Both the position numbers and the translations under genes were made by a program. A stretch of 64,000 nt of DNA from positions 384,001-448,000 of the forward strand of contig OZ241841.1 in NCBI GenBank assembly GCA_965202665.1, in the 5' to 3' direction. This DNA is from Candidatus Spongiisociaceae bacterium. Its GTDB lineage: Bacteria > Actinomycetota > Acidimicrobiia > Spongiisociales > Spongiisociaceae. How positions within the stretch are numbered: the first letter of the stretch is position 1; each line of letters starts with the position of its first letter. This document shows, piece by piece, positions 1,963 to 29,588 of this stretch. The notes below the pieces were generated by a model, which saw only the letters and a list, made by a program, of their open reading frames with translations, had not been told where the DNA came from and ran no database searches.

Positions 1963-1978
1963 CAGGTATCGTTTCCAA
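1963..1978. promoter_or_regulatory. Putative LacI-family operator in a divergent intergenic region
   Basis: GGTATCGTTTCC (revcomp GGAAACGATACC), CG-centred, 1 mismatch from the core of the 29558 site. Confidence 0.55.
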
Positions 1979-2023
1979 CCATACACCAGCGGGGCCGCCG
2001 GCGGGCGGCGGGACGAGGGAGAA

Positions 2024-2773
2024 ATGACCGACCACGATTTTTACGGGACGTTGCCCGGCTTTGCGGGGCGGACGGCGGTGGTGACCGGGGCGGGGGGCGG
2101 CATCGGGCGGGCGGTGGCCGACGGCTTGGCCGGGCAGGGGGCCCGCACCGCCTATCTGGATGTGGCCCCGCCCCCCGATGTCGCGATGTTCGAAGGGCGG
2201 GCGGACAGGTGTTTCGTGGAATGCGACGTGTCGGACGCCGACTCGGTGGACGCGGCCTTCGGGGCGGTGGAGGCCCGATGGGGGACGGTTTCCATTTTGG
2301 TGAACAACGCCGGTATTTTCCGCATTCAGCCGCTGGAGGAAATGACTTTGGCGGATTGGGAGCGGATGCTGTCCGTCAACCTGACCGGGGTGTTCCTGTG
2401 CGCCAAACGGGCCCTGCCGGGGATGCGGGAGGCGGGTTACGGGCGGATCGTCAACCTGGGGTCCAGCGCCGGGAAAACGGGGGGGAGCAAAAACATGGCC
2501 GCCTACGCCGCCTCCAAAGCGGCGGTGATGTCGTTCACCAAGTCGGTGGCCTCCGAATACGCCGCCCACGGGATCACCAGCAACGCTTTGGCCCCGGCCC
2601 TGATAAACACCAGCATGGCGGAGGGCATAGCCGACCTGAAACATCTCATCCCGGTGGGCCGCCTGGGCGAACCGGAGGATGTGGCCCGGGCGGTCCTGTT
2701 CCTGGCCTCCGAGCAGGCTTCTTTCATAACCGCCGAAGTAATGGACGTAAACGGAGGCTTCCTAGTAGACTAA
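2024..2773 (+). CDS. Short-chain dehydrogenase/reductase (FabG-like SDR)
   Basis: TGAGGGIG, NNAG, YAASK and VNGG motifs; GAGGGAG RBS. Confidence 0.92.
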   Translation: MTDHDFYGTLPGFAGRTAVVTGAGGGIGRAVADGLAGQGARTAYLDVAPPPDVAMFEGRADRCFVECDVSDADSVDAAFGAVEARWGTVSILVNNAGIFRIQPLEEMTLADWERMLSVNLTGVFLCAKRALPGMREAGYGRIVNLGSSAGKTGGSKNMAAYAASKAAVMSFTKSVASEYAAHGITSNALAPALINTSMAEGIADLKHLIPVGRLGEPEDVARAVLFLASEQASFITAEVMDVNGGFLVD

Positions 2774-4015
2774 ACAACACCCGTCCCTGAACCCAACCGC
2801 GCAGAATATCAGGGGCCGAAGGTTTGTTGGGCGGGGGCGGTGGCCTCGTGGGCGTGTTGCAGAAGGTTGTTCCAAGACACGATCAGCGAATTGTAAGCCA
2901 CCGCATCCTCGGTACGGCCAGCGCCGTTGGCCACCTCATATAACAGATAGGCCAGATGACGGGCGTAGTCGCCCAAACCCGGCCCCGCCCGAGCCAGCAA
3001 CACCCCGGCCTGGGCATCCGACCTGCCCTGGCGGGCCACCAAATGCTGAGTAAGCTCCCACACCGTCAACCGCCGATCCTCCGCCGGATCCCACTCCGGG
3101 TCCAACTCATCCCTGGTCAACAACCGCACCTTGCCGCCCTTGGATTCCGCCACCTCCGCCTCCACCACCCCCGACACCGACGTGTTCATCGCCTTCGCCA
3201 ACGTCTCCGCATCCCCAAACGGACCCGGCTGATGCCCAAACTGCCGATACCAAGTCAGGGCGAACCGACTGTCGGCATCCAAATCAGTTTCCTCCTGGGA
3301 CAGGATTTCTTCCAGCACCCCGTTAATCAAGGCAAGGGCGGTGCGCACCCGCATCGTGGAACCGTCCGCTTCCACCACCCGCTTATACCGGGAGAACACC
3401 CGCATACCCGGCCCGATAGCCGACTGCGCCATATCCACCGGCGGAATCGCCTGCTCCTGCAACAGCCCCACCGCCTCCGGTAATTCTTCCCGCAACGCCG
3501 CCAAAAACCCACCCCGCGTCTCCAACCGCGCATCCACAGAACGAGGCCGACAAGCCAACACCACCGACGACGACAACGCCGCGGCACCTTCGGCCACCGC
3601 CCGATTCGCCATCTCAGTTCGAACCGGCCACGTAGCAGTAACCTCTAAGCCAGCATCCACCAAGCCCTGCAAAAACGTCTCCCAACCGGTAGATGTTGTC
3701 GCCCCCTCTTTTATTTCCTGTTGCTTGAAAGCGTAAAAAATGGTTGCAGGAAAATCGGGATGTTGGACGCCAGAAATTTGCTCCATGACTTTGGTCATCT
3801 TCGATTCAAAATAGGACTTCGCCGCCACTTTGGAACCGGCTCGCCAAGGGTTCGCCACTAACTCCTCCTGTTTGGGAGTCAATAATGTCGCACACTCATC
3901 CGGCCATACTCTAGATAAGTTACGACGCAACCACACATAGTAAAAATCAGATATATCCGCATACTGTATATTATCGTAATAAGGCGGATCAGTACAAACT
4001 ACTGGTTTATTAATT

Positions 4016-6585: not shown

Positions 6586-6600
6586 CCCCCCCCCCCCCCC
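6586..6600. repeat. 15-nt C homopolymer (G15 on the coding strand) in MTase motif I
   Basis: Counted directly; causes the frameshift between ORFs 6277..6963 and 5415..6581. Confidence 0.9.
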
Positions 6601-7085
6601 GCAGAAGGGGTCTAAAACATTGGGCAAGTCATCCCCGCACGACGCCTTAATCTCGGCCTTGGCTTCGGCCAGCACATCCGGGTCGTTGCTGTTTTCCCAC
6701 ACCACCAAACGTTCCAGAATGTCAAACAGCCGCTTGCGCTCCGTCTTCTGGTCTTCCGCCGTGGGGAACCTGCCGGGATGGGCGGACGGGTCGTCCACCA
6801 GCGACGACCACAGCACAGCCCGCACCGCCGCCAGCGGACGGCGGGCCCACCACAGATGCAAAGTGGAAGGATGGCCGTGGCGGATGGACTTCTCGCGGGC
6901 CGACTCCCGGCTTATCGCCTCCAACGGCAACGCCACCTCAATCAGTTTTCGTTTCGGAGCCATCCATCTCCTCGGGGAAGTTTCCTCCAGCCTACCCGTC
7001 CCGCCGGGTCATCGCCCAACCCGGCGCGGGGATAAACCCTCCCCCCACCGGACCCGCTGTCATCCGCCGACGGTGAAACCTCTTC

Positions 7086-8504: not shown

Positions 8505-8741
8505 TCAACCTTTCCGTCAACCTATCGGGATTGTAGTCGCCTCCCGTCTTCGGTTGCCTCCATTGTAACACATCCCCCCTCCCGGTGCTAAACAAACCGG
8601 GAAATATTTTACGGCGAATGAATAGCTATTCCGAGTTGCGGATTAGCCGGCGCGATGTTGCCGAGAGTGGGGGGAGGAGGGTTAGCGGCGGAGGATGGGG
8701 GCGATCCAAAACCAGTTCCCATCCCTTGAGGTCATGGGGCG

Positions 8742-10618: not shown

Positions 10619-11698
10619 TCAACCCGGGCCCGGCCCCGGGCCCTCATCTTTTGATCCGGGTTTGGTCAAACCTATGCGGCGGTAAGCCTCCTCGGGGATG
10701 GCCTCCACCGTCTTGTACACCGTCCAAGTGCATTTTTTGGGTTCCGGACCGGAGGTTTCATCCGGGTAGAGGGGCGAATCCACCACCCGCACCGGATGGC
10801 CCCACCGTTCGGCGGGCAGGCGCTCCAAGGCGAAACAGCAGTGGGCGCAGTAGTAGCACACCCCTTTCTCGTTCCAAGCCCAATCGTGTTCCTCCTGCGT
10901 CACGCCGAACCGGTAGGGGGGCAGAACCCGCGACCCGGTGCCCTCCTCCGGGTCGCCCCGCGAGGAGCGCCCGCCGGAGCCGCACGGGTCGAAACTGATC
11001 ACCCATCGGTCCTCGTATTCGTCGAAGTCCATGTCCCCCCGCCGCTCCGGGCCGCACAGGTGGGCCCGCATCGCCTCGACGGCGGTGTACAGATTGCGGA
11101 AGATGGTGTCGGCGTAGTCCCGTTCCCGCAGGTCGAAGGGCATGTAACGTTCCTGGATGTAAGGTTCCAACGTGCGGCGGTACATGTCCTCCAAAGAGGC
11201 CTCCCCGAAGCGGCCGGCGGCGAAAGCCAAAATCCCCGACAAGTAGTCCACCCACCGGTCGTGCAACATCCGCCACCCTTCCCGCAACCCGTCCATGTCG
11301 GAAACGGCCTCCCGCTCCCCGATCTCGCCGGAACGCACCAGGTTACCCAACCGGCCGGCCCGCTCCCCCAGTTCCTCCCACATCGTGAAAGGCAGAAACA
11401 GCGACCCGTCGGGCAACCGCAGCAGCCAGGCCAGCCTGCGCACCTCGGCGTCCAGTTCCTTCTCCCCCACCCCCCGCTCCCGCAGCCAACCCTCAAACCC
11501 CTCCGACCAAATCTTGTAAATGGAAAAAACCACTTTGGCCTCTTCCATGAAGTAGTCGATCAGCTGGGCGGCCGCCTCCGCTTCCCCTTCCCGCACCGCC
11601 TCCTCAATTTTGTCCACGGTGGGGATGATCTGGTCGGCCCAGTCGCCGGTGCGGACCCGTTTCCCCAAATCGTCGGACCAAGTGAGATTAGTAACCAT
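10619..11698 (-). CDS. Uncharacterised Cys-motif protein (paralog A of 20320..21447)
   Basis: EAMRAH, FDPCGSGG, GVCYYCAHC and CTWTVYK, shared with the paralog; AAAGGA RBS. Confidence 0.8.
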   Translation of the reverse strand: MVTNLTWSDDLGKRVRTGDWADQIIPTVDKIEEAVREGEAEAAAQLIDYFMEEAKVVFSIYKIWSEGFEGWLRERGVGEKELDAEVRRLAWLLRLPDGSLFLPFTMWEELGERAGRLGNLVRSGEIGEREAVSDMDGLREGWRMLHDRWVDYLSGILAFAAGRFGEASLEDMYRRTLEPYIQERYMPFDLRERDYADTIFRNLYTAVEAMRAHLCGPERRGDMDFDEYEDRWVISFDPCGSGGRSSRGDPEEGTGSRVLPPYRFGVTQEEHDWAWNEKGVCYYCAHCCFALERLPAERWGHPVRVVDSPLYPDETSGPEPKKCTWTVYKTVEAIPEEAYRRIGLTKPGSKDEGPGPGPG

Positions 11699-11747: not shown

Positions 11748-12569
11748 ATCAACGCTACCATTCTTGGGCTGGGAGGCGCAGTCGCGTTCGCGGTCGGGTC
11801 GCTGATGACCAAACATTTCGTGGACCGGCTGCCCCCGTTGCAACTCATCGGCCCGCTTTACCTGCTCAACGCCGCCGTGCTGGCGCCGGCCGCCCCGTTC
11901 ACCGACTGGCATTGGACGCCCCGCATTGGAATATTGCATCTGATCAGCCTAGCCGTCATTTGCATTACCGCTTTGGCCATCTTCCGGTTGCTGGAACACG
12001 GGGCGGCCTCGGCGGTCACCACCGCCGCCGCCACCAGCCCTTTCCCGACCGTGCTGGCCACCGCCCTGCTGATACCGGCCGGGTTCCGATGGGTGGAAGC
12101 GGCGGCGGCGGCGCTGGTGGTGGGCGGGGTGCTGTGGGCGGTGTCCGACTCTTTCCAACGGCTGGGGAGGACGGCCACGGTGCTGACCGCGGCGGCCGCT
12201 TCGGCGGGCACCGGGATGACCACGGTTATGGCCCGCCTGCTCATCGACGAAGGGGCCGGACTGGTGGAAATCTACGTGGTGCGCACCGCGCTGGCCGGGG
12301 CCCTGTTCACCTTGGCCGCCCCGCCCCGGGACATTCCCCGCGGGGCCTGGCGGTGGCTGGCGTTGCGGTCCTGTTTCATCACCGGCGGGTTTTCCCTGTC
12401 CATCATCGGCTTGCGCTACGGAAGCCCGGCCCTGGTGCAAACCATGCTGGCCACCATGCCCCTGTTCGTGATCGGAGGGGAAACGATGCTCTCCCGCCGC
12501 CGCCCCAACCTGCGGGTGGCGGGAGCGGCCGCCCTGGCCGCGGCCGGGGTGGCCCTGGTGTCCTTCTAG
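11748..12569 (+). CDS. DMT/EamA-family membrane transporter (start uncertain)
   Basis: About 10 hydrophobic segments in two repeats; ORF open from 11610. Confidence 0.7.
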   Translation: MNATILGLGGAVAFAVGSLMTKHFVDRLPPLQLIGPLYLLNAAVLAPAAPFTDWHWTPRIGILHLISLAVICITALAIFRLLEHGAASAVTTAAATSPFPTVLATALLIPAGFRWVEAAAAALVVGGVLWAVSDSFQRLGRTATVLTAAAASAGTGMTTVMARLLIDEGAGLVEIYVVRTALAGALFTLAAPPRDIPRGAWRWLALRSCFITGGFSLSIIGLRYGSPALVQTMLATMPLFVIGGETMLSRRRPNLRVAGAAALAAAGVALVSF

Positions 12570-12956: not shown

Positions 12957-13142
12957 TTTCCCCTCCCTATAGCGGACGACTGGGTTGTCCAAAGCATCAT
13001 AACCACCGGGGCGGATCTAGTTGAACAAGTCCGTCTGCAAGGCGGGCGGGGCGGTTTTCCCGGCAACCCCCGGGGGTTTGTCGGAGGGCTGTGCTAAAGT
13101 CCTTCCCGTTACGGAAACGGCGGCGAGACGAGGAGGGCCGAG

Positions 13143-13457
13143 ATGCAGCGAGCCTGCTTCACTTTTGAGATTTATCCGCACATGGCGGACGAGTACAAGA
13201 AGCGCCACGATGAGATCTGGCCGGAGCTGGTGGATCTTATCCGGGAGTCCGGCTTGAAGAACTACACCCTGTTCCGGCGGGGAACGCAGGTGATCGCCTA
13301 TGTGGAATGCCACCCGGATGTGGAAACCGCCTTCGCCAAGGTGGGGGCCTCCGAGGTGAACGCCCGCTGGTCCAAATGGTTCGAGGAGGTGATCGTCAGC
13401 CTGGTGGACGAGGACGGCAACCTCTACTGGGCGGACGAAGTTTGGCACCAGGACTGA
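13143..13457 (+). CDS. rhaM: L-rhamnose mutarotase family protein
   Basis: EYKKRHDEIWPEL..SGLKNYTLF..VNARW motif; 104 aa. Confidence 0.88.
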   Translation: MQRACFTFEIYPHMADEYKKRHDEIWPELVDLIRESGLKNYTLFRRGTQVIAYVECHPDVETAFAKVGASEVNARWSKWFEEVIVSLVDEDGNLYWADEVWHQD

Positions 13458-16634: not shown

Positions 16635-16651
16635 TAGGAAAGGAAATCAAA

Positions 16652-18805: not shown

Positions 18806-20206
18806 GTAGTTGGCTACTATCGCTATCTGGTCGGCTAGGCGTCCGGGGGCGCAGGCACTGTGGTGGTTGACTCCGGCCAGCGCCCAGCGACGCCACGCCG
18901 CCTCCACCGGGTCATCGCCCGCAAACCGGAAGGCCCCGCCCGCCGTGGGGCTGTCCGGGAAGGAACGTTCGGTTATCTCCCCTTCGGCGGCTATCAGGCG
19001 GAAACCGCTCGGTTCGGCGTGGTGGGGGGTGAAACCGACCAGGGTGGCCGGGCCGGGGGGCAGTTCGAACCAGGCGCTGACCCCGGTCAGCGGGTCGGAT
19101 AGAAACCAGGGGTTGGGCTGCAGGCGGGGGCGAACATCCTCCGGACACCAGGCCAGGTCGTGCTCGCCGGAGTTGGCGATGGCCGTCTCCCCCCGCACGA
19201 AGTCGATCGCCTCCACCTCGTGATACAGGGCCGCCCCGCCCAGCCGTTTCGCCACCAGCATGGCGACCGCCGTCACCACATCCCCGGTGCATGTCCAAGG
19301 AACGCCGCGGGTGGTTTCCCGTCCCAGCGCGAAACAGGGCGTCACGCCCGGGTCCTCCCCGTAGCGGATCTGGGGGACATGGCAGTTCATCGCCCCGGCG
19401 TGGAACCCGCCTTCCCGGTCCAGATCCTCCAAGGCGGCCGCCAGTCGCAGAGAACGGGTGCGTGCCGGCTCGTCGGGGGCGGCGTCCTCAAACCTTTCTC
19501 CGATTTCCGCCTCCAACCGGGATATGTCCGAACAGCGCCGGTAGCGGTCGGCTATCTCGTCCGGGGAAACCGCCGCCACTTCCAGGCCGATGGCCCGGCG
19601 CAACTCCCCGTCGTCCGCATCCACGCAGGCGTAGCCGTCCACCGGCCGCCCCACCCGGGCGATGCGGGCCCGGGACACGGCCGCCGCCGTAGCCGCCGCC
19701 CGAATGACCCGCACCAGCCGCCGATAGACCTCCCCGTCCTGCACCGCCCCCACCGCCAACTCAAAAGGGCGGCCCTCCCGGCCCAGCACGTTGGTCAGCA
19801 TGGGCGTCCCCACCGTCGCCCCCTGGGTGGTGATGTCGTACTGGTCAAAACCCACCCATACGCTGCGGGAACGTTGCGCCGCCCATACGATCACCGGCGC
19901 CTCCGGCAACCCGTCCAAAGCGGTTTTGGCGTACATCGGGGGAACGGCCATGGTCTGCATCGCCAAAATCACCTCCGTCCCCGCCCGTGCCATCTCCGCC
20001 GCCGCCCGTTCCCCCGCCTCCGCCGAATCAACCAGCCCCCGCCACGCTATATGCAACCCGCCCGACTCCTCCCCCGCCGCCGCCAAAGCATCCGCCGCCT
20101 GCTCCAGCAAGCCTTCCCGCTCTTGGCGGAAGCCGGGTCCGCCCGCGCTCGGCTCCCAGAAAGTCCAGTAGGGCGCAAGCAAAGCCACCCGGGGTTGGTC
20201 GGACAT
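18776..20206 (-). CDS. L-arabinose/L-fucose isomerase-like protein (paralog 2)
   Basis: GAMNCH, C-TGD, GPATL, AEG, NHH; collinear with 13477..14934. Confidence 0.78.
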   Translation of the reverse strand: MSDQPRVALLAPYWTFWEPSAGGPGFRQEREGLLEQAADALAAAGEESGGLHIAWRGLVDSAEAGERAAAEMARAGTEVILAMQTMAVPPMYAKTALDGLPEAPVIVWAAQRSRSVWVGFDQYDITTQGATVGTPMLTNVLGREGRPFELAVGAVQDGEVYRRLVRVIRAAATAAAVSRARIARVGRPVDGYACVDADDGELRRAIGLEVAAVSPDEIADRYRRCSDISRLEAEIGERFEDAAPDEPARTRSLRLAAALEDLDREGGFHAGAMNCHVPQIRYGEDPGVTPCFALGRETTRGVPWTCTGDVVTAVAMLVAKRLGGAALYHEVEAIDFVRGETAIANSGEHDLAWCPEDVRPRLQPNPWFLSDPLTGVSAWFELPPGPATLVGFTPHHAEPSGFRLIAAEGEITERSFPDSPTAGGAFRFAGDDPVEAAWRRWALAGVNHHSACAPGRLADQIAIVANYLKIGFIQVS

Positions 20207-20319
20207 CGTCGCCTCCTCGCTTGCCTCCCGCGCCTTTTCCCCGGCGTCGCCGACGCGCCGGGCGGTTCAAAGACTAGGGTATTCATTGAAACGTCGCCGG
20301 AACCCGCAAAGGAGCGCAT

Positions 20320-21447
20320 ATGACCACCGCAACCGACACCCGAATTGAGTTCTCCGACATACTGGGCCGCCGGGTGCGGCTCGGTTCGTGGGAGGATCAG
20401 AAGATCTCCACCTACCGCAAGATCAAGTCGGCGGTGGCGGAGGGAAACTGGGACCACGCCGCCGAGTTGGCCGACTATTTCACCGACGAGGCCAACGTGT
20501 GTTTCAGCCTCTACCGGCAGTGGATAAACGACCTGAACGGCTTCCTCAAAGAACAGGGAACCCCCGCCGACGAACTGGCGGAAATCAACGCCGCCATCGT
20601 GGACAAAATCGCCCTGCCCGACGGCTCCCCCTGGAACCCGCATCGGCACTGGGACCTCTACAAGCGGCAACAGCGGGAACTGCTGTCCTACATCTACCGG
20701 GGGCGGGCGGACGAAGCCGGCCGGGCCTTGGACGGTATGAAAGAAACCTGGCGGCAGACCCACGACCGGGATGTGGATCACACCTACGGGTTGATGTCGG
20801 AAATCCAGGAACGATTCGGTTCGCAGGGGATAGTGGACATGTTCCAGAAACTGCTGGTGCCCCTGTTCGCCTGGCGATACGAAAAGTTCGACATCGACAA
20901 GCACCCCTGGGATGAGGGCTTGGAGGCCCTGATGCTGGTGGCGTGCGAGGCGATGCGGGGCCATCTGGTGGGCCCGGAGCGGACCGGGGACTTCGAGCTG
21001 GTGGAAACCGACGACCGGTTCATCGTCCGCTTCGACCCGTGCGGCTCCGGGCAGCGCACCATCCGCGGCGACTGGATAGAAAACACGCCGGCCCGCATGA
21101 AACCCCCCTACAACTGGGGCGTCTCCCAGGAGGAGGCCTCCTGGAACCATTATCAGAAAGGGGTGTGCCTGTACTGCGCCCATTGCATCATCCTGATGGA
21201 GGAAATGCCGATGGACCGGTTCGGCTATCCGGTGCGGGTGGTGGACCCGCCGGTCTATCCGGACACCGACCGGGACCCGGAGGCGCGGCAACGTTGCCAG
21301 TGGCAGATGTTCAAAGACCCCACGCAGGTCCCCGCCGAATACTACGAGCGGGTGGGACGCACCAAGCCGGAACAATTCGGCTCGTCCCATTTCGACGCCC
21401 CCGAAATGCCCGACGCCGGGGCCCTCGGCCTGCCCGGACTGGGCTGA
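20320..21447 (+). CDS. Uncharacterised Cys-motif protein (paralog B of 10619..11698)
   Basis: EAMRGH, FDPCGSG, GVCLYCAHC and CQWQMFK; AAAGGAG RBS. Confidence 0.82.
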   Translation: MTTATDTRIEFSDILGRRVRLGSWEDQKISTYRKIKSAVAEGNWDHAAELADYFTDEANVCFSLYRQWINDLNGFLKEQGTPADELAEINAAIVDKIALPDGSPWNPHRHWDLYKRQQRELLSYIYRGRADEAGRALDGMKETWRQTHDRDVDHTYGLMSEIQERFGSQGIVDMFQKLLVPLFAWRYEKFDIDKHPWDEGLEALMLVACEAMRGHLVGPERTGDFELVETDDRFIVRFDPCGSGQRTIRGDWIENTPARMKPPYNWGVSQEEASWNHYQKGVCLYCAHCIILMEEMPMDRFGYPVRVVDPPVYPDTDRDPEARQRCQWQMFKDPTQVPAEYYERVGRTKPEQFGSSHFDAPEMPDAGALGLPGLG

Positions 21448-21492: not shown

Positions 21493-22515
21493 ATGCGAGC
21501 CGCCCTGCTACGGGAATACCATCAACCCCTGCAACTTGAGGAACTGCCCGACCCCGTCCCCGGGCCGGGGCAGGTGGTGGTGGACACCCGGGCGGCGGGG
21601 GTGTGCGGGAGCGACGTGTTCCTGCAAAAAGGCGGGTTCGACTCTAGGTTGCCCATCGTGCCCGGCCACGAAGCGGCCGGAGTGGTGTCGGCGGCGGGGC
21701 CGGGGGTGGAAATCCGGATCGGAACCCCGGTGGCCATGTACTACATCGACCACTGCGGGGAATGCCGCACCTGCCGGGCGGGGCGGGTCAACATGTGCCT
21801 GTCGGTGCGCCGCATGGGAGTGGAATTCCATGGGGCGTTCGCCGAAAAGGTGGTGTTGGCGGAACGGAGCGTCATACCGGTTTCACCCGATGACGACCCG
21901 GCCGCCATCGCGGTGCTGACCGATGCGGTAGCCACCCCCTACCACGCCCTGGTGCGCATCGCCCGCGTCGAACCGGGGGAGACGGTGGCGGTGTTCGGAA
22001 TCGGCGGAATAGGTTCCAACGCGGTGCAGTTGGCCGCTCATCTGGGATGCCGGGTGATCGCCGTCAGCCGCACCCCCGCCAAACTGGACTTGGCGGCCCG
22101 GCTGGGGGCGGAGGCGGTCATCCGCAGCGACCGGGGCGTGTTGGAAAACATCGCCGAAGCGGCCGGGGAGGGCGGGCCGGATGTGATCCTGCAGACGGTC
22201 GGTTCGGCGGCGGTGTACGAACAGGCCTTGGCGGCGGCGGGGATCGGATGCCGGGTGATCGCGGTCGGCTCCAGCCTGGAACCGTTGCCGGTGATTCCCA
22301 TGCGCCTCATCTGGAGCGAAGCGGCGGTGGCCGGTTCGCGGGGGTTCACCCCCCGGGACATCAGGGAAGTGATCGAACTGCACCGTTCGGGGGCCATCGC
22401 CACCGGCCATCTGCTGGGCAATCGGATCGAACTGGACGGCATCAACCGGGCCTTGGACGACCTGCGGGCCGGAAAGGTGCTGCGTTCAGTGGTCGCATTC
22501 AAAGACGGCTGGTAA
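21493..22515 (+). CDS. Zn-dependent alcohol dehydrogenase (MDR)
   Basis: GVCGSD, GHE, CxxCxxC-x7-C, GIGGIG. Confidence 0.92.
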   Translation: MRAALLREYHQPLQLEELPDPVPGPGQVVVDTRAAGVCGSDVFLQKGGFDSRLPIVPGHEAAGVVSAAGPGVEIRIGTPVAMYYIDHCGECRTCRAGRVNMCLSVRRMGVEFHGAFAEKVVLAERSVIPVSPDDDPAAIAVLTDAVATPYHALVRIARVEPGETVAVFGIGGIGSNAVQLAAHLGCRVIAVSRTPAKLDLAARLGAEAVIRSDRGVLENIAEAAGEGGPDVILQTVGSAAVYEQALAAAGIGCRVIAVGSSLEPLPVIPMRLIWSEAAVAGSRGFTPRDIREVIELHRSGAIATGHLLGNRIELDGINRALDDLRAGKVLRSVVAFKDGW

Positions 22516-22527: not shown

Positions 22528-23589
22528 ATGGGCGGTCGCTACCGGATTGCGGTGATACCCGGGGACGGGGTGGGCCGGGAGGTTGCCGAAGCGGGCTTGG
22601 CGGTGGCGCAGGCGGCGGCCGACCCGGACGGCGTCGTTTTGGAAACCATCGAATATCCCTGGTCGTGCGAATGGTACGCCAAGCACGGGCGGATGATGCC
22701 CGGCGACTGGCGGGAGCGCTTGGAGGCGGCGGATGCCATTTTCCTGGGGGCGGTCGGCTATCCGGGGGTGCCCGACCATGTTTCACTGTGGGGATTGCTG
22801 CTTCCCATCCGCCAGGCTTTCGACCAGTACGTCAACCTGCGCCCCATCCGGGCTTTGCCGGGCATCCGCCCCACCTTGGCCCGCAAAGACCACCGCCACA
22901 TCGACATAATGCTGGTGCGGGAAAACACGGAAGGGGAATACGCCGGGCAGGGCGGGCGGCTGGCGGCCGGAACCGAATGGGAGGTGGCCACCCAAACCTC
23001 CGTTTACACCCGGCGGGGGGTGGAGCGGCTGGTGCGCTACGGGTTTGAAACCGCCCGCGCCCGCTCCGGGCGGCTGGCTTCGGCCACCAAATCCAACGCC
23101 CTGCAATACGCTTCGGTGATGTGGGACGAGGTGGTGGAGGAAACGGCGGGGGACTATCCGGATGTGCAGGTTTCCCCCTATCTGATCGACGCTTTGGCGG
23201 CCGCTTTCATCTCCCATCCGGAAAACTTCGACGTGGTGGTCGCCTCCAACCTGTTCGGGGACGTCCTGGCCGACATCGGAGCGGCCCTGATGGGGTCCAT
23301 GGGGATGGCACCTTCCGCCAACCTGAACCCGGCAGGAACCGCCCCCAGCCTGTTCGAACCGGTGCACGGCTCCGCCCCCGACATCGCCGGGCGGGGCGAA
23401 GCCAACCCGCTGGCGGCGGTGTGGAGCGCCTCCCTGATGCTGGACCACTTGGGGGAGGCGGAAGCCGCCCGGCGGGTGATGGCATCTGTGGAACAGGTGG
23501 CCGAATCCGGCCCGCACACCCCCGACCTGGGCGGAACCGGATCCACCGCCCAAGTAACCGACGCCCTACTGCAAGCCGTCCCCAAATAG
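22528..23589 (+). CDS. Tartrate/D-malate dehydrogenase (decarboxylating), isocitrate/isopropylmalate DH family
   Basis: IPGDGVG, PDHVSLWGLLL, TKSN, SNLFGD, EPVHGSAPDIAG. Confidence 0.88.
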   Translation: MGGRYRIAVIPGDGVGREVAEAGLAVAQAAADPDGVVLETIEYPWSCEWYAKHGRMMPGDWRERLEAADAIFLGAVGYPGVPDHVSLWGLLLPIRQAFDQYVNLRPIRALPGIRPTLARKDHRHIDIMLVRENTEGEYAGQGGRLAAGTEWEVATQTSVYTRRGVERLVRYGFETARARSGRLASATKSNALQYASVMWDEVVEETAGDYPDVQVSPYLIDALAAAFISHPENFDVVVASNLFGDVLADIGAALMGSMGMAPSANLNPAGTAPSLFEPVHGSAPDIAGRGEANPLAAVWSASLMLDHLGEAEAARRVMASVEQVAESGPHTPDLGGTGSTAQVTDALLQAVPK

Positions 23590-24224: not shown

Positions 24225-24473
24225 GGGGGCTAGGTCAGTTCGAACAAGGATGGCGACCGCCCCAGCCCCGCCGGAGAACTTTGCGGGGCTGTACGATGTC
24301 AACGACGAAATGTTCACGGCGGGGTTCTTAGCCGCTCTGGAACGATTGCCCGACGGATACCGATTCGACCCCGACACCGGAATCCTGCTCCGCGACGACC
24401 CCACCCTGGACCCCTACCCCTACCTGGGCGCCCTCTACTCTTCGGAAGAGGGCCAGGGGGGCTAGGTCAGTTC
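24024..24473 (+). repeat. Tandem direct repeat, ~218-bp copies (24024-24241 and 24256-24473), period 232 bp
   Basis: Manual alignment; long identical core plus one strongly diverged ~25-nt block. Confidence 0.93.
24250..24465 (+). CDS. Small hypothetical protein (71 aa), stand-alone copy of the upstream C-terminal module
   Basis: MATAPAPPENFAGLYDVNDE... matches the tail of 23640..24224. Confidence 0.55.
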   Translation: MATAPAPPENFAGLYDVNDEMFTAGFLAALERLPDGYRFDPDTGILLRDDPTLDPYPYLGALYSSEEGQGG

Positions 24474-25469
24474 TCCGGCTCGCCAGGCTTTCAGGTAGTT
24501 CATGCAGAACTCGTCCCGGCCGAGCAGGGTGTCGCAAGCCAGCCGGTAGCCGGGCGACTCCCGGTCGGCGGCCCAAACTTCGGCCACCGGATTCATCACC
24601 GGGTCGATAATCCCGCTGTCCGCCCCCGCCTCCGTCGCCAGGTTGATGAAGGCGGCGTTCATCAACTTGCGGGCCGGGATCCCGAAAGAAACGTTGCTGA
24701 GGCCGCCGGTGATGTGAATGCCGGAACCGAACCGCTCCCTCAAACCGCGGATGGCGTCCAACACGTGCAACCCGTACGACCCATCCACCGAAATGGGGAA
24801 AACCAACGGGTCCACGTAAATGTCGTCCTCCGCCAGCCCCCCCGCCAAAGCCGCCTCCACCATCCGGGAGGCGTTGTCGATGCGCTCCCCGGCGTCGGAA
24901 GGCATGCCCTCCGACCCCGACGAGGTAACTATCACCCGGGCCCCATGCTCCACCGCCAATTCCAAAGCGTCGATCCGTTCCAGGGAAGCCGAGTTGAGCA
25001 TGGGACGGGCCCCGTTGCCGGCCGCCGCCCGCAAACCGGCCGCGATGGACTGCACGTCGGAGGAATCGACCGACACCGGCAACTGGGAGTGTTCCCGCAC
25101 GAACCCGACCAGCCACACCATCGCCTCCCGTTGCTCGGCGGGCCGCAGGGAAATCTCATCCACGTTCACATCCAGGAAATGGGCCCCCGCCCGTTCCTGA
25201 TCGCGGATCACCCGTCGCAGGTACTCCTCCCCCTCTGGGGCGCCCCTCATCGCCTCCCGCACCGCCAAGGCGATGTGCTTGACGCGGCCCTGTTGAAACT
25301 CTTTGCCGGCCGTCATCCATTCCGTCACCGGCAGAAACCCCTCCTCGCCCCCGATGGTGGTGAAAACCACTCCCCCCCGTCCGTCCCGCTCCGCGAACCG
25401 TTTGCCTTTGCGCAACAGGATGCGGCTGGCGTGGATGTTCTCCCCGATGACGATGAAAGGGCCGCTCAC
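24462..25469 (-). CDS. Methylcorrinoid:tetrahydrofolate methyltransferase (pterin-binding, AcsE/MetH-type)
   Basis: VIGENI, LDVN, SVDS, LNS, DPLV, GLSNVSFG; GTG start overlaps the upstream stop. Confidence 0.87.
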   Translation of the reverse strand: MSGPFIVIGENIHASRILLRKGKRFAERDGRGGVVFTTIGGEEGFLPVTEWMTAGKEFQQGRVKHIALAVREAMRGAPEGEEYLRRVIRDQERAGAHFLDVNVDEISLRPAEQREAMVWLVGFVREHSQLPVSVDSSDVQSIAAGLRAAAGNGARPMLNSASLERIDALELAVEHGARVIVTSSGSEGMPSDAGERIDNASRMVEAALAGGLAEDDIYVDPLVFPISVDGSYGLHVLDAIRGLRERFGSGIHITGGLSNVSFGIPARKLMNAAFINLATEAGADSGIIDPVMNPVAEVWAADRESPGYRLACDTLLGRDEFCMNYLKAWRAGELT

Positions 25470-27172
25470 CGCCCCGCTCCCGCCAGCGCCGGCTCCGCAG
25501 GCCCCGCCGGGCCGTCGGAAACGGGGGCGAACGGAAATACTTCCGGCATCGGCTTCAGTTGGCATCCCTCCACGAACACATCGAAGAAGTCGGTAGAGGT
25601 TTCCAGTTCAATGTGGGTTACGTCTTTCACCCGTTCCTCCAGGGCCGCCCGGCGGGAGGCGGACAGCAACACCCGGCGGGCCCCGTCGATGGCCGCATTG
25701 CCCACCCGCGTGATGCGTTCCGGCGGAATGGGCGGTATCAGGCCGATTTCCGCCGCGTTGCGGGCGTTGATGTAGGAGGCGAACCCCCCGGCCAGAAACA
25801 GCCGTTCCACATCGGCGGGCTGCACCCCGGCCGCCCGCATGACGATCAGCTGGCCGCTGTAGTTGGCGGCTTTCGCCTGGGCCAGATTGCCGACGTCCTG
25901 CTTGGAAAAAGTAATGCCCCGTTCGGGGAAGAGATCCATCTGGAAACGGCGCCGGTCGGCGGAGAACACCCCCCGTTCGGTCATAATCCCGTGCCGCCGC
26001 ACTTCGGCCAACAGGTCGATCAGGCCCGACCCGCACAACCCCGCCGGGGGTTGGCCGCCGATGGTGGCGTATTCGGCGGGGGTTCCGTCCGGGGCGAGGC
26101 GGATGGATTCGACGGCCCCCTCGTAGGCCCGCATCCCGTAGGAGACCAGCCCCCCTTCGAAGGCGGGCCCGGCCGGGCAGGAAGCGGCGAACAGCCGCCC
26201 CCGGTGGTGGAGGAGCACCTCGGTGTTGGTGCCGATGTCCACCAGCATGTTGGTTCCGCCCCCGGCCGCCAGATCCACCGACTCCAAACAGGCGGCGGCG
26301 TCGCCCCCCACATGGCTGGCCACCAGCGGCAACCCGTAGACCCGCGCCCGCCGGTTGGCCCGGATGCCCAACTCTTCGCTGCGGGCCAGCAGGGCGGTGG
26401 TGGGGCGGCGGCCGTCCAAATATTCGCGCTCCGTCAGCGACTTGTAAGGTTTGGAGCCGATGCTCTGCACGTCCCAGCCGAACAGGATGTCCCGCATGGT
26501 GGAGTTGCCCGCAACCGTGATCTCGTACACGCAGGGCGGGCGGCGCCCGACGGAGGCGGTCAACTCCCGGATGCCCTGATTGAGGTAGGTGACCGCCGCC
26601 TTCTGCAACTCCCCCGCCGCCCCGGGCTGGGCTTCGTAGGAGATGCGGTTCATCACGTCGCTCCCCCCGAACCGTTGCGGGTTCTCGAAACTGGCCACCG
26701 CCGCCGGGCGGCCGGTTTCCAAATCCACCAGTTCCATCACCACGGTGGTGGTGCCCAAATCCACCGCCAGCCCGAAAATCGCCCCCCGGTAGGAGTCCAC
26801 CCGCTCCCCGTCGTACAACACCGACTCCCCCGCCCGGACGACCAGCGGATCCAACGGGCCGGGAGGGGCGGCGGGGGACTGCGGTTCCAAGATGCGGGGG
26901 CGGCGGCGCAGGGCGGCGAATTCGATGGGGGAGGCCGGGTCCATGATGCGGGCCTGGCAGGCCAGGCGGTAGTCGTCCCGCAGGAAAGCCTCCGCGGCGG
27001 TGGGGGGGAGCAGCGATTCCATGCCGGAAATGATTTCCACCACGCATTCGTGGCATTGGCCGGTGCGGCGGCAGGAAGTGGGCACCTCCACCGCCAGTTC
27101 GTCGGCGTAATCGAAGATGGTCTTGCCCGCCTCCGCCGGACGGGCCTCCCCGCCGTGCCGAACCTCGCTCAT
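25466..27172 (-). CDS. ASKHA-type ATP-dependent reductive activator of corrinoid proteins (RACE, DUF4445) with an N-terminal [2Fe-2S] domain
   Basis: SCRRTGQCHEC..RLACQ, DLGTTT, G.DVMNRI, DIGTNTE, AGPAFEG, GLCGSG, LAGGF, GNAA. Confidence 0.92.
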   Translation of the reverse strand: MSEVRHGGEARPAEAGKTIFDYADELAVEVPTSCRRTGQCHECVVEIISGMESLLPPTAAEAFLRDDYRLACQARIMDPASPIEFAALRRRPRILEPQSPAAPPGPLDPLVVRAGESVLYDGERVDSYRGAIFGLAVDLGTTTVVMELVDLETGRPAAVASFENPQRFGGSDVMNRISYEAQPGAAGELQKAAVTYLNQGIRELTASVGRRPPCVYEITVAGNSTMRDILFGWDVQSIGSKPYKSLTEREYLDGRRPTTALLARSEELGIRANRRARVYGLPLVASHVGGDAAACLESVDLAAGGGTNMLVDIGTNTEVLLHHRGRLFAASCPAGPAFEGGLVSYGMRAYEGAVESIRLAPDGTPAEYATIGGQPPAGLCGSGLIDLLAEVRRHGIMTERGVFSADRRRFQMDLFPERGITFSKQDVGNLAQAKAANYSGQLIVMRAAGVQPADVERLFLAGGFASYINARNAAEIGLIPPIPPERITRVGNAAIDGARRVLLSASRRAALEERVKDVTHIELETSTDFFDVFVEGCQLKPMPEVFPFAPVSDGPAGPAEPALAGAGR

Positions 27173-27549
27173 TCCGCCGCCTCCGAATCGGCCCCGTCCG
27201 CCTCCCGCCGTTGGGCGGCTTCCCGTTTGATGGAGGCTATCTTGTCTTTGGTGCGGCGGTAGGCCCGGGCGTCGGTCTCCCAGGCGGTGCGGTAGTCGAA
27301 GGTTCCGTCGTGGCCGCAGAACAGCTCCTCCGGGTCGGCCTCCTCCGCCCGCTGGTTGCGGCATCGGAACAGGGCGGTGCATCGGTCCAGGCGGTCCCGG
27401 TAGGGGCACCGCAACCGGGACACCTCCTCGGCGTGCGAGGCCACCCCGGTGAAAATCTGGTTGATCCGGTCCAGGCGGAGGCGTATCTCCTCCGGGTCCA
27501 ACGGCTCCGGATGGGGGGGCTCGGAGGCGGGGGGCGGGGATTCGGCCAT
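27169..27549 (-). CDS. Small 4-Cys hypothetical protein in the corrinoid operon
   Basis: C-x8-C-x5-C-x14-C; 3 nt after the corrinoid gene stop; ATGA overlap with RACE. Confidence 0.75.
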   Translation of the reverse strand: MAESPPPASEPPHPEPLDPEEIRLRLDRINQIFTGVASHAEEVSRLRCPYRDRLDRCTALFRCRNQRAEEADPEELFCGHDGTFDYRTAWETDARAYRRTKDKIASIKREAAQRREADGADSEAAE

Positions 27550-27552
27550 CGG

Positions 27553-28302
27553 CTACGCCCCCGCTACGGCCAGTTCTTTGGCCAAAGCCACGCAGGCCAG
27601 GGCGTCTTTGCCGTAGCCGTCAGCCCCCACATCCTCGCCGAATTCGGGAGTGACCGGGGCGCCGCCCACCATGAAACGAACTTGCTCCCGCAGTCCCTCG
27701 TCTTTGAAAGCCTCCACCGTTTTGGCCATGTTGGGCATGGTGGTGGTGAGCAGGGCGGACATTCCGATCACCATGGCGTTGTTCTCTTTGAAAGCGGCGA
27801 TGAACTCTTCCGGGGAGGTGTCCACCCCCAGGTCCACCACCGTGAAACCGCCCCCCCGCAACATCATTATGCACAGGTTTTTGCCTATGTCGTGCAGGTC
27901 GCCTTTGACGGTGCCCATGATCACCGTTCCAACCGGCTCGGAACCGGAGGCGGCCAGGATCGGCTCGATGTGGGCCATTCCGGCTTTCATCGCCCGGGCG
28001 CACACCAGCACCTCCGGCACGAAAATGAAACCTTCGCGGAATTTGATCCCTACGATCCCCATTCCGGCGATGAGGCCGTCGTCCATAATCTCCAAAGCCC
28101 CCACCCCGTTGTCCAAAGATTCCCGGGTCATCTCGTCCACCGCCTCGTTGTCGCCCATGATCAGGGCGGCGGCGATGTCCTGCATCTCCGGCGAGGCGGC
28201 CGCGAACAGTTCTATGTTGCGTTCGATCTCCTCCGGGTCATCGAGGAACTCCTCTATTTCCTCCCGGATGATTTCGCTTACGATATCGGAAAGTTGCGCC
28301 AT
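27553..28302 (-). CDS. Methyltransferase cognate corrinoid (B12-binding) protein
   Basis: GTVKGDLHDIGKN, DLGVD, SALLTTTM, VGGAPVT; N-terminal cap with FVPE. Confidence 0.95.
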   Translation of the reverse strand: MAQLSDIVSEIIREEIEEFLDDPEEIERNIELFAAASPEMQDIAAALIMGDNEAVDEMTRESLDNGVGALEIMDDGLIAGMGIVGIKFREGFIFVPEVLVCARAMKAGMAHIEPILAASGSEPVGTVIMGTVKGDLHDIGKNLCIMMLRGGGFTVVDLGVDTSPEEFIAAFKENNAMVIGMSALLTTTMPNMAKTVEAFKDEGLREQVRFMVGGAPVTPEFGEDVGADGYGKDALACVALAKELAVAGA

Positions 28303-28341
28303 TGTCCCGTTCGGTTGCGTTGCTGCGGCCTGCTCGGCCCC

Positions 28342-28370
28342 ACATTACTGGAAACGTTTCCAGTAGGCAA
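28342..28370 (-). promoter_or_regulatory. Sigma70-type promoter with a perfect 20-bp LacI-type operator covering the spacer
   Basis: TTGCCT-N17-TAATGT on the minus strand; palindrome TACTGGAAACGTTTCCAGTA at 28346-28365. Confidence 0.85.
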
Positions 28371-28427
28371 GCCGCCGGCTAAAAAGGTGCTGCGGCCCCG
28401 CCTCGGAAAAGGGCCTCTTGCCGGGCT

Positions 28428-29546
28428 TTACCCTCCGTTGTGGGTTACAAAACGCCCGTCGGGACGGTGGGCGTTGGAATAGTCCCGGCAGGAGTCGGCC
28501 AAAGCCCGCAACACTTCCATTTTGGTGCCCAGCGGCACCGAACCCTCCGGGGCGATCCCCTGCACCCCCGCCTCCAGCACCGCCATACAGGCGTCGTAGG
28601 TGTCCTGGTAGGTGCCGCTGAACAGGGTGGTCGGGTTATTGATGTTGCCCATCAGGGACATGCGCCCGTCGGTGATGCTCATGGCCTTATACGGGTCCAC
28701 CTGCGATTCGAAGTGGAAGCAGTCCCATCCCGCTTCGGCGAAGTAGTCGATGCGGTCGGTGGTTTCCCCGCAACAGTGCAGGATGCCGGGCCCGCCCATC
28801 TCGGCGGAAATGTGCTGGTGCATTTCCAGCAGGAAATCCCGGTAGGTTTCGGGGCTGACCAACTCCCGGTTGGCGTGGTCGCACCACATCACCGCGTCCG
28901 CCCCCGCCTCGAACTGGGCGTGGGCCGACATCATGGAGGCGGGCAGCAGCACTTCCAGAAAACGGCGGATCTTGTCCGGCTCGGTGAGGGTGCCCATCAG
29001 CCAGTTCTCGATGCCCACCATATGGAACCCCACCGACCAGGCTCCGTACACCTTGCCCACGATGGCCACATCCGGATAACGTTTGCGCAACAGCCGGATG
29101 GCCCCCAGGACCGCCTGAAAAGAGCGCCTGTTCAGATAGTCGGAGGGGACTTTGAAATCCTCCGGGTCGGTCAGCACGTGGCTTTTAGTGGCGGGCCAGT
29201 TGTCCCGCTCCCCCCACCAGGTGTCGGCGTCCAAAGCGTCGGCTTCCAGCTGGGAGTGGAACACCGGCATAACCGTGTCCAAACCCAGGTTTTCGTGGGC
29301 GGTGGCGGCCAGGCGGGCCATTTTCTCCGCATCCAGATGGGCTTCGGGGAAGTCGGCGTCGGCGATGTCCATGGCCTCCAACGTCACCACCGAACTGAGG
29401 GTCATGGCCGGCACCTTGTCCACCCGCCCCCCGTACAGGGCCGACAGAAAGCGGCGGCGGGGGGTCATCCACTCCCCCGACAGCCGAGCCGTGCGGGGAG
29501 GTTCGGCCACCTCCGGTTTGCGCGCCTTGTCCCTGGTGTAAGCCAT
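28428..29546 (-). CDS. MtaA/CmuA-family (UroD-fold) methyltransferase
   Basis: FPEAHLDAEKMARLA, EADAL, ILHCCG, LMGNIN. Confidence 0.88.
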   Translation of the reverse strand: MAYTRDKARKPEVAEPPRTARLSGEWMTPRRRFLSALYGGRVDKVPAMTLSSVVTLEAMDIADADFPEAHLDAEKMARLAATAHENLGLDTVMPVFHSQLEADALDADTWWGERDNWPATKSHVLTDPEDFKVPSDYLNRRSFQAVLGAIRLLRKRYPDVAIVGKVYGAWSVGFHMVGIENWLMGTLTEPDKIRRFLEVLLPASMMSAHAQFEAGADAVMWCDHANRELVSPETYRDFLLEMHQHISAEMGGPGILHCCGETTDRIDYFAEAGWDCFHFESQVDPYKAMSITDGRMSLMGNINNPTTLFSGTYQDTYDACMAVLEAGVQGIAPEGSVPLGTKMEVLRALADSCRDYSNAHRPDGRFVTHNGG

Positions 29547-29557
29547 ACATCCCTTTC

Positions 29558-29588
29558 CTGGAAACGTTACCGGAAATTAAGGATACCA
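29558..29588 (-). promoter_or_regulatory. Extended -10 promoter plus a second LacI-type operator
   Basis: TGGTATCCT (minus strand, 29588-29580); CTGGAAACGTTACCGG at 29558-29573 next to the RBS. Confidence 0.72.

What the first reader, a model, noticed from the sequence alone, without database searches (positions are those of the whole stretch)
1963..29588. Shared LacI-type operator links the B12 methyl-transfer module to sugar/polyol catabolic genes
Seen: the perfect palindrome TACTGGAAACGTTTCCAGTA (28346-28365) fills the spacer of a TTGCCT-N17-TAATGT promoter for the corrinoid gene. CTGGAAACGTTACCGG (29558-29573) lies between the extended -10 and the RBS of the MtaA-like gene. GGAAACGATACC (revcomp, 1965-1976) lies between the divergent Gfo/Idh and SDR genes. 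Weaker copies follow -10-like hexamers at 20286 (TTGAAACGTCGCCGG) and about 13113 (half-site, rhaM). Known: AAAC|GTTT CG-centred palindromes are typical LacI/GalR operators, usually sugar-responsive. Inference: one regulon couples corrinoid-dependent demethylation to carbohydrate catabolism, for example of O-methyl sugars or O-methyl inositols. I do not know of such a pathway described in Actinomycetota. No LacI gene lies in this window.
Basis: partly seen in the sequence, partly recalled or inferred. Interest (0 to 1): 0.82.

Follow-up and report, generated by a model that had tools for sequence, protein, structure and literature searches.

The report
Sugar repressor controls B12 demethylase module
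In a sponge-associated actinobacterium and in Chloroflexota, the same palindromic DNA site sits in front of both a vitamin-B12 methyl-transfer operon and a set of sugar uptake and breakdown genes next to one LacI-type repressor gene, so the B12 machine likely strips methyl groups from methylated sugars, a route my literature searches did not find.

Summary
The three strong sites are real; the two weak ones (13113, 20286) are not supported. A matrix built from the three strong sites ranks two further sites 3rd and 4th in the 2.77-Mb genome. Among 23 Spongiisociaceae genomes with an intact MtaA-like gene, the operator before the corrinoid gene is present in 16 of 16 with the LacI ortholog and 1 of 7 without; where LacI is deleted, the promoter stays and the operator decays. 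In Chloroflexota, orthologs of up to 19 of 30 cluster genes form one cluster with LacI, and the same motif emerges de novo in 2 of 3 clusters. So the regulon is local and shared across two phyla. The module is a four-part corrinoid methyltransferase, likely a demethylase feeding folate. An O-methyl sugar or cyclitol is the likeliest substrate (about 0.55) but is untested; nitrogen-handling neighbours allow an amino-sugar reading.

The parts
1..776 (-). Xylose-isomerase-like TIM-barrel protein; runs 120 nt past the window start. Beyond it lie an operator (G000 383831-383846), E1beta/E1alpha/lipoyl genes, LacI (380410-381456), a lactonase, an operator (379292-379307), a sugar ABC transporter, SDR, VOC, an enolase-family enzyme and SDR
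829..1926 (-). Gfo/Idh/MocA oxidoreductase; its Chloroflexota ortholog directly precedes the MtaA-like gene on the same strand
1963..1978 (.). Operator CAGGTATCGTTTCCAA between the divergent Gfo and SDR promoters; weakest of the five sites, right half kept in G001
2024..2773 (+). Short-chain dehydrogenase (SDR_c)
10619..11698 (-). Uncharacterised 359-aa protein, 42% paralog of the 375-aa protein
11805..12569 (+). EamA-family transporter; ortholog in the Chloroflexota cluster
13111..13126 (.).
13143..13457 (+). RhaM-family mutarotase
13507..14934 (+). L-arabinose/L-fucose-isomerase-like protein (ISOM1)
18776..20206 (-). Second arabinose/fucose-isomerase-like protein (ISOM2)
20285..20300 (.).
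20320..21447 (+). Uncharacterised conserved Cys/His-rich 375-aa protein; 64-67% ortholog in the Chloroflexota cluster
21493..22515 (+). Zn-dependent alcohol/polyol dehydrogenase
22528..23589 (+). Tartrate dehydrogenase (TIGR02089 over cut-off)
24462..25469 (-). Pterin-binding methyltransferase (MT2, corrinoid-to-tetrahydrofolate type)
25466..27172 (-). RACo-type corrinoid reactivating ATPase with a 2Fe-2S domain
27169..27549 (-). Small Cys-containing protein, conserved between the corrinoid and RACo genes in Acidimicrobiia
27553..28302 (-). Corrinoid protein with the DxHxxG motif (DLHDIG at residue 135)
28342..28370 (-). Predicted promoter TTGCCT-N17-TAATGT with the perfect 20-bp operator (28346-28365) in its spacer; top-scoring site in the genome
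28428..29546 (-). URO-D/MtaA-family methyltransferase (MT1), metal site H-C-C-G ... P-E-G
29558..29573 (.). Operator CTGGAAACGTTACCGG between the predicted -10 and the RBS of MT1

Best explanation
Five copies of one palindromic site (consensus CTGGAAACGTTTCCAG) lie in the promoter regions of a sugar ABC transporter, sugar-oxidation genes and a four-part corrinoid methyltransferase operon around one LacI gene, and this LacI likely represses all of them until an O-methylated sugar or cyclitol, or its first product, appears. Shown by sequence: the sites, their overlap with predicted promoters, the neighbouring LacI, joint presence or loss of LacI and operator, and the same cluster in Chloroflexota. 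Inferred steps: (1) the RbsB-type ABC system imports the sugar; (2) the effector releases LacI; (3) the Zn-dependent MtaA-like MT1 moves the O-methyl group to the Co(I) corrinoid protein, possibly after the Gfo enzyme has oxidised a neighbouring hydroxyl (speculative); (4) the pterin-binding MT2 passes it to tetrahydrofolate, and RACo re-reduces oxidised cobalt using ATP; (5) methyl-THF is oxidised through MTHFR, FolD and formyl-THF synthetase, or used for methionine; (6) the unblocked sugar goes through mutarotase, isomerase, dehydrogenase, lactonase, enolase-family dehydratase and a thiamine-dependent E1 complex. My odds: regulon real 0.93; this LacI is the regulator 0.9; the module demethylates a substrate of this pathway 0.7; O-methyl sugar or cyclitol 0.55; a methyl-rhamnose/fucose-type 6-deoxyhexose 0.3.
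For: Held-out sites rank 3 and 4 in the genome; 0 matches in each of 8 simulations against 4 real. LacI gene at G000 380410; the other two LacI genes lie 0.37 and 1.07 Mb away and have different palindromes nearby. With a matrix from G000's five sites only, 17 of 23 MT1 loci carry a site: all 16 genomes with the LacI ortholog plus G012, whose contig ends where LacI would lie. In G007, G016, G020, G024 and G028, LacI is missing from between SDR and the lipoyl gene (G025 not examined in situ). In these five and in G025 the -35/-10 boxes persist while the operator decays. G018 (LacI present) lost the old site and has a shifted new one. G004 and G009 have LacI, lipoyl, E1, operator, MT1, operator and corrinoid gene contiguous, and G002 has the cluster within about 40 kb. 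In one Chloroflexota order, 11 of 201 genomes have MT1; all 11 have the enolase ortholog and 9 have the LacI ortholog. In 7 of 7 newly mapped loci the order is site, Gfo, MT1, corrinoid gene. G627 shares 19 of 30 cluster genes as reciprocal best hits. De novo search gave CTGGnAACGTTnCCAG-like motifs in 2 of 3 Chloroflexota clusters (log-likelihood 53 against 20-27 for shuffles), and these rank the five G000 sites within the top 8 intergenic positions. The recognition helix is V-A-L/I-S-S-V-S-R in both phyla. Sugar character: RhaM, isomerase, RbsB-like binding protein, lactonase nearest to the L-fucono-lactonase model, sugar-acid dehydratase family; RhaS-like binding protein and ApnL-like lactonase in Chloroflexota. 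Direction: MTHFR follows RACo behind a site in G078, G079 and G080, with FolD nearby in G078. G000 has MTHFR and Fhs, cytochrome oxidase and no CdhC match. The module has its own RACo and MT2, separate from a second, glycine-betaine-type module.
Against: No binding, expression or enzyme data. Except for tartrate dehydrogenase, no catabolic enzyme reaches an NCBIfam substrate-specific cut-off, so the sugar is not identified. Sixteen other Acidimicrobiia genomes (G062-G077) keep the module at 82-86% identity with no LacI ortholog, no operator and no Gfo ortholog. They do keep a 51-53% enolase in 13 of 16, and in the 5 genomes mapped it lies beside an isomerase-like gene. In genus g7 the sugar-side operators score low even with LacI present, and in most of g2 they are weak (9-13). 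The g7 tree is unresolved (support 37-52), so the six LacI-less genomes may be a single loss. Amine-dehydrogenase-like, creatininase, DMFase-like, amidohydrolase, MlrC and RidA genes recur in the cluster variants. The de novo search failed in G652. Eight Chloroflexota genomes have the enolase and six have LacI without a detected MT1. The cluster's P450 does not match the known sugar-demethylating P450 at E 1e-30. Aliphatic methyl ethers are harder to cleave than aryl ethers (own knowledge).
Confidence: 0.55

Rival explanations
1. The regulon is real, but the substrate is a nitrogen- or sulfur-methylated carbohydrate-like compound, such as an N-methyl amino sugar or aminocyclitol, and MT1 removes that methyl group.
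For: 2,4-diaminopentanoate-dehydrogenase-like, creatininase-family, DMFase-like, amidohydrolase, MlrC, PALP and RidA genes recur in cluster variants of both phyla; a DMFase-like gene lies a few genes before MT1 in G013.
Against: None of these genes is in the G000 cluster itself. Known corrinoid N-demethylases are MttB-family (PMC12478193 passages), and G000 keeps its two MttB genes elsewhere. URO-D-type first methyltransferases act on O-, S- or halide-methyl donors (recalled).
Confidence: 0.17
2. MT1 does not touch the sugar. Another enzyme of the pathway releases a small methyl carrier (methanol, methanethiol or methylamine), and the module scavenges that into folate.
For: The module persists at 82-86% identity in 16 genomes without LacI or the Gfo ortholog, beside unrelated genes. 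Oxidation followed by elimination could free methanol from a methyl sugar (inference).
Against: Methanol systems use an MtaB-family first enzyme (PMC13391211 passages) and none lies in the module. In Moorella, solitary mtaA-type genes are strongly down on methanol relative to glucose; I could not match the 52% Moorella homolog to a locus tag.
Confidence: 0.12
3. The module runs the other way: methyl-THF donates through the corrinoid to a thiol or sugar acceptor, as a methionine-synthase substitute or for making a methylated compound.
For: MT1's nearest solved relative is the thiol-methylating MtaA (E 6.5e-45). G000 has no PF02574 homocysteine methyltransferase match. Such MT2 enzymes can work in both directions (PMC12478193).
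Against: MtaA's third zinc cysteine is replaced (P-E-G in 78 of 82 homologs at 58% identity or more, the other 4 lacking that stretch). 21 of 28 family genomes carry PF02574, and G000 has a MetE-C-terminal-like gene. Control by a sugar-type repressor together with uptake genes fits catabolism (PMC4052901).
Confidence: 0.08
4. The module was captured by a neighbouring sugar regulon and has no chemical link to it, or the motif is a global catabolite site or chance.
For: Gene order is scrambled in Spongiisociaceae, and in G001 the module and LacI are 1.3 Mb apart.
Against: The operators persist at the module after separation from LacI (G001, G008, G013, G015). One was rebuilt in G018. The link is present in a second phylum. 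The strong sites are confined to 35 kb.
Confidence: 0.08

Closest known systems
Local LacI-family sugar regulons (Ravcheev et al. 2014, PMC4052901; passages seen)
   Same: Even palindrome of 16-20 bp with a CG centre in G000, most sites 30-140 bp before start codons, regulator gene inside the cluster, ABC transporter and catabolic genes as targets.
   Different: Targets include a corrinoid methyltransferase operon; the only 'methyl' word in that paper's main text is a taxon name. The corrinoid-gene site of most relatives has a GG/CC centre.
Corrinoid O-demethylase systems of anaerobes (Moorella Mtv, Acetobacterium Odm, Desulfitobacterium; PMC13391211 passages)
   Same: MT1, corrinoid protein, MT2 to tetrahydrofolate, and an ATP-dependent activating enzyme.
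   Different: Known donors are methanol and aryl methyl ethers and the methyl group feeds acetogenesis. This host has cytochrome oxidase and no CdhC match, and the context is sugar catabolism.
MtaA, methylcobamide:CoM methyltransferase of Methanosarcina (PDB 4AY7)
   Same: Nearest solved structure (E 6.5e-45), URO-D family, H-x-C motif kept.
   Different: Third zinc cysteine replaced (P-E-G), extra cysteine in H-C-C-G. A separate pterin-binding MT2 is present, so this protein is more likely the substrate-side enzyme.
MtgBCD glycine-betaine demethylase of aerobic Ruegeria pomeroyi (PMC12478193 passages)
   Same: Corrinoid demethylation to folate in an aerobe, with MetF proposed to oxidise the methyl group; G000 has such a module at 953-960 kb.
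   Different: MttB-family first enzyme and an N-methyl donor; the window module is a separate copy with a URO-D-family enzyme.
P450 demethylation of 6-O-methyl-D-galactose in marine bacteria (PMC6292453 passages)
   Same: Removes a blocking methyl group so that a sugar can be catabolised.
   Different: Oxidative, releases formaldehyde (abstracts listed) and accepts only 6-O-methyl-galactose. The system here would keep the methyl group on folate and need no oxygen for that step.

Membership tests
LacI/GalR local regulon | Even palindrome of 16-22 bp with central CG | tested here: met
   All five G000 sites have a CG centre; the corrinoid-gene site of most relatives has a GG/CC centre.
LacI/GalR local regulon | Sites in promoter regions of the target operons | tested here: met
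   19-85 nt from the nearest start codon, at or near predicted -35/-10 boxes that are conserved in relatives.
LacI/GalR local regulon | LacI-family gene in the cluster whose presence tracks the sites | tested here: met
   PF00356 and PF13377 protein at G000 380410; site in 16 of 16 genomes with the ortholog and 1 of 7 without.
LacI/GalR local regulon | Direct binding and release by a sugar effector | not testable with these tools
   Needs EMSA or reporter assays.
Global catabolite regulon (CcpA/cre type) | Many sites across the genome and a CcpA-type regulator | tested here: not met
   The four top sites lie within 35 kb; TIGR01481 score 142.6 against cut-off 442.
Four-component corrinoid methyltransferase system | MT1, corrinoid protein with DxHxxG, pterin-binding MT2, RACo activator | tested here: met
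   PF01208; PF02310 and PF02607 with DLHDIG; PF00809; PF14574, PF17651 and PF00111.
Four-component corrinoid methyltransferase system | Methyl transfer from an O-methyl donor to tetrahydrofolate | not testable with these tools
   Direction and donor are inferred from context only.
MtaA methylcobamide:CoM methyltransferase | Zinc site His-x-Cys ... Cys and score above the MtaA model | tested here: not met
   P-E-G where MtaA has P-G-C-G; NF040654 222.7 against 400; TIGR01463 234.6 against 235.4.
Non-phosphorylative L-rhamnose/L-fucose pathway | Mutarotase, 1-dehydrogenase, lactonase and dehydratase of the specific subfamilies | tested here: inconclusive
   All four enzyme classes are present, but each scores below its substrate-specific NCBIfam cut-off; the RhaS-like protein scores 278 against 342.
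Inositol pathway of the IolG/IolM/IolN/IolO type (gene set recalled) | Gfo, Zn-dehydrogenase, creatininase-family hydrolase and TIM-barrel epimerase of the inositol subfamilies | tested here: inconclusive
   Best NCBIfam hits are IolG (67.9 against 355) and IolM (187 against 450), both far below cut-off; the creatininase-family gene occurs only in relatives.

The most novel reading that the evidence does not exclude
This is a vitamin-B12-dependent demethylase for O-methylated sugars, run as part of an inducible sugar pathway that sponge Acidimicrobiia and Chloroflexota share. It would be an oxygen-independent way to unblock the methylated sugars that resist breakdown in seawater and soil, salvaging the methyl group on folate instead of releasing formaldehyde. 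The regulon also defines the rest of an undescribed pathway, including a protein family with no matching solved structure.
Probability: 0.5. Interest if true: 0.82.

Novelty: new variant of a known kind. Interest (0 to 1): 0.68.

Why it matters
Methylated sugars resist bacterial breakdown and accumulate in ocean surface water; the sugar demethylase that paper describes is a P450 specific for one sugar (PMC6292453 passages). A corrinoid route tied to sugar uptake would be a new chemistry for this step and a new role for B12 in oxygen-respiring sponge symbionts. The regulon makes the question testable: the LacI and the binding protein can serve as ligand sensors to find the substrate of an orphan methyltransferase clade and of several unnamed enzymes. 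It also records regulatory evolution: repressor loss with operator decay, and a rebuilt site in one genome.

Tried and rejected
Weak sites at 13113 and 20286: rejected as operators in G000. Other two LacI genes as regulator: rejected, distant and with different nearby palindromes. Module as shared service for the MttB enzymes: rejected, the second module has its own RACo and MT2. The matrix from Chloroflexota sites is not independent, because those sites were picked with my own matrix; one search is the independent test. The matrix used includes four sites from relatives, so the family count rests. The LacI recognition-code paper (PMC2978694, passages) covers TVSR helices; ours is SVSR, so no test was possible. 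Fold searches for the 375-aa protein found no clear match. The cluster's P450 gave no hit to the sugar-demethylating P450 at E 1e-30. Sequencing runs: no RNA holder listed, so no reads were laid. ISOM1 has no solved relative by sequence. Literature: searches found no corrinoid-dependent sugar demethylation; two found no account of this module in sponge Acidimicrobiia, and PMC12008989 (passages) has no 'corrinoid' but reports B12 synthesis genes enriched in sponge lineages. The library lacks most subscription papers. A Desulfitobacterium O-demethylase paper was not held, so the claim that O-demethylase MT1 enzymes are URO-D-like is recalled. G019 was left out of the family count because its MT1 is fragmentary and its LacI has an internal stop. 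G061 (1.6 Mb) has sites but no LacI hit and is outside the 23. MT1 was not found in 32 genomes of other families of the order (this count includes G043, flagged unpublished) or in 400 sampled Actinomycetota at E 1e-85.
Full report
Setting. The window is G000:C1:384001-448000 of a 2.77-Mb, 64% GC genome. Record titles of the closest relatives name Candidatus Spongiisociaceae, class Acidimicrobiia. I called genes with a dicodon model and annotated them with Pfam and NCBIfam.

The observation. The site before the corrinoid gene is a perfect 20-bp palindrome inside TTGCCT-N17-TAATGT. The consensus scanner did not call that promoter, but G001 has TTGCCA-17-TAAAAT around the same operator. A matrix from the three sites ranks two unseen intergenic sites 3rd and 4th in the genome: one between the sugar-binding-protein and lactonase genes, one before the E1beta gene. 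Four positions reach that score, all within 35 kb; eight Markov simulations of the intergenic DNA gave none. The two weak sites rank 1147th and 25458th. The 20286 site is absent in G001, and no site precedes rhaM in the three relatives printed. I treat both weak sites as unsupported.

The regulator. A LacI gene lies 2.5 kb upstream of the window, between the two new sites. The genome's other two LacI genes are far away and have different palindromes nearby. The upstream cluster also holds an RbsB-type ABC transporter, two SDRs, a VOC protein, an enolase-family enzyme, an amidohydrolase-2 lactonase, and E1alpha, E1beta and lipoyl genes.

Footprinting in the family. Of 28 other family genomes, 22 have an intact MT1 ortholog at 81-93%. 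With a matrix from G000's five sites, 17 of the 23 loci, G000 included, carry a site between MT1 and the corrinoid gene. These are all 16 genomes with the LacI ortholog plus G012, where the contig ends inside the lactonase gene that normally precedes LacI. The six without a site all belong to genus g7. In five of them LacI is missing from its usual place; G025 was not examined in situ. Their -35 and -10 boxes persist while the operator carries different substitutions, and G018, which keeps LacI, has lost the old site and shows a new overlapping one. The g7 tree is unresolved, so this may be one loss. In G004 and G009 LacI, the E1 genes and the module are contiguous; in G002 the cluster spans about 40 kb. 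Against a tidy picture: sugar-side operators are strong in G000, G001, G002 and one G009 locus, weak in most other g2 genomes and low-scoring in g7. Sixteen further Acidimicrobiia genomes keep the module without LacI, operator or the Gfo ortholog; 13 of them keep a more distant enolase, which lies beside an isomerase-like gene in the 5 genomes mapped.

A second phylum. MT1 orthologs at 53-67% occur in Chloroflexota. In the order of G080, 11 of 201 genomes have MT1; all 11 have the enolase ortholog and 9 have the LacI ortholog, while 8 have the enolase and 6 have LacI without a detected MT1. I mapped 7 of the 8 newly found genomes. In all 7 the order is site, Gfo, MT1, corrinoid gene, and in 6 LacI adjoins RACo. 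The four most complete clusters share 16-19 of 30 G000 cluster genes as reciprocal best hits, including rhaM, ISOM2, the 375-aa protein, EamA and the Zn dehydrogenase, with related sites before most operons. A de novo palindrome search recovered the motif in G623 and G627 but not in G652, and the two recovered matrices place the five G000 sites among the top 8 intergenic positions. The LacI recognition helix is nearly the same in both phyla. Six metagenome contigs also show this LacI beside E1, enolase-family, Gfo or sugar-binding genes, five of them with sites.

The module. It has the four parts of a corrinoid methyltransferase system plus a small Cys protein. MT1 is nearest to MtaA among solved structures but lacks its third zinc cysteine; H-C-C-G with P-E-G marks 78 of 82 homologs at 58% identity or more, while the Moorella homolog keeps the cysteine. 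With a separate pterin-binding enzyme present, MT1 is more likely the substrate-side enzyme. G000 has a second, glycine-betaine-type module with its own RACo and MT2, MTHFR and Fhs, a FolD-like gene, cytochrome oxidase and no CdhC match. In three Chloroflexota, MTHFR follows RACo behind a site. This favours demethylation with oxidation of the methyl group, as proposed for aerobic Ruegeria (PMC12478193, passages).

The substrate. About 90% of LacI regulons are local sugar regulons (PMC4052901, passages). The targets here are sugar-type: mutarotase, isomerases, dehydrogenases, lactonases, dehydratases, and a RhaS-like binding protein in Chloroflexota. None but tartrate dehydrogenase reaches a substrate-specific cut-off. 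An O-methyl sugar or cyclitol explains a methyltransferase in such a regulon most simply, and the rhamnose-like parts point weakly to methylated 6-deoxyhexoses. Recurrent amine-dehydrogenase-like, creatininase, DMFase-like and MlrC genes keep an amino-sugar reading open. In Moorella, two URO-D genes around a transporter are expressed on glucose and off on methanol (PMC13391211, passages and four supplement rows), but I could not tie the 52% homolog to either locus tag.

Novelty. The machine and the regulator are each of known kinds; their coupling is not described in what I could search, which omits most subscription journals. The known sugar demethylase in those results is a P450 for 6-O-methyl-galactose (PMC6292453, passages). 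The scan reported this operon three times on other genomes, once suggesting a methylated sugar, and the 375-aa family four times; those notes are leads, not support.

Verdict. Observation partly confirmed; interpretation supported. The regulon is well established computationally, the chemistry is untested. New variant of a known kind; interest 0.68.

Noticed in passing
G000:C1:950463-960293: A second complete corrinoid module of the glycine-betaine type (corrinoid protein, pterin-binding protein, RACo, MttB, MTHFR and small genes), with a second MttB at 1755825; no PF02574 match in this genome.
   Followed up: partly
window 20320-21447 and 10619-11698: Two paralogs of an unnamed Cys/His-rich family (647 homologs found, confident model, no structural match), part of the regulon in Chloroflexota.
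   Followed up: partly
window 27169-27549: Small Cys-containing protein between the corrinoid and RACo genes in Acidimicrobiia; G078 and G079 have a DUF1638 gene after the corrinoid gene instead.
   Followed up: no
window 15048-18805: Low-GC (48%) insert with an N6/N4 methyltransferase-HNH fusion and a GmrSD nuclease, splitting the two isomerase genes.
   Followed up: no
window 2800-8700: Lower-GC (57%) stretch with an ISL3 transposase interrupting the cluster.
   Followed up: no
window 24009-24465: Two tandem similar 71-aa ORFs with no family match, just after MT2 on the opposite strand.
   Followed up: no
window 45651-54707: A second sugar-type ABC transporter with hydantoinase A/B and amidohydrolase genes; no strong site of this motif.
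   Followed up: no
G000:C1:1613966-1615489: About 22 copies of a repeat containing a 20-bp palindrome at 72-75 nt spacing, likely a CRISPR array.
   Followed up: no
G000:C1:741813 and 1445564: Candidate operators for the other two LacI genes: TTCCGCAATCGTTTGCGGAA and GATGAAAGCGTATTCATAC.
   Followed up: no
G000:C1:168262-168277: Isolated intergenic match CTGAAAACGATTCCAG, ranked just below the five cluster sites, far from the cluster; probably chance.
   Followed up: no
L089:5422-7270 (G015) and L090 (G008): Genus g2 carries a second MtaA-like gene (40-42%) with its own corrinoid gene (73%) and no operator.
   Followed up: no
L041 and L067 (G019): LacI with an internal stop and a fragmentary MT1 in the same genome, suggesting decay of the pathway or assembly error.
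   Followed up: no
L181:12899-14209 (G623) and orthologs: A cytochrome P450 follows the rhaM-like and isomerase genes in several Chloroflexota clusters; it could be a second demethylase, but nothing here shows that.
   Followed up: partly
P0241 (Moorella thermoacetica, AKX95200.1): Homolog of MT1 (cluster at 52%) in a cultured acetogen; URO-D genes MOTHE_c24190 and c24210 are on with glucose and off with methanol.
   Followed up: partly
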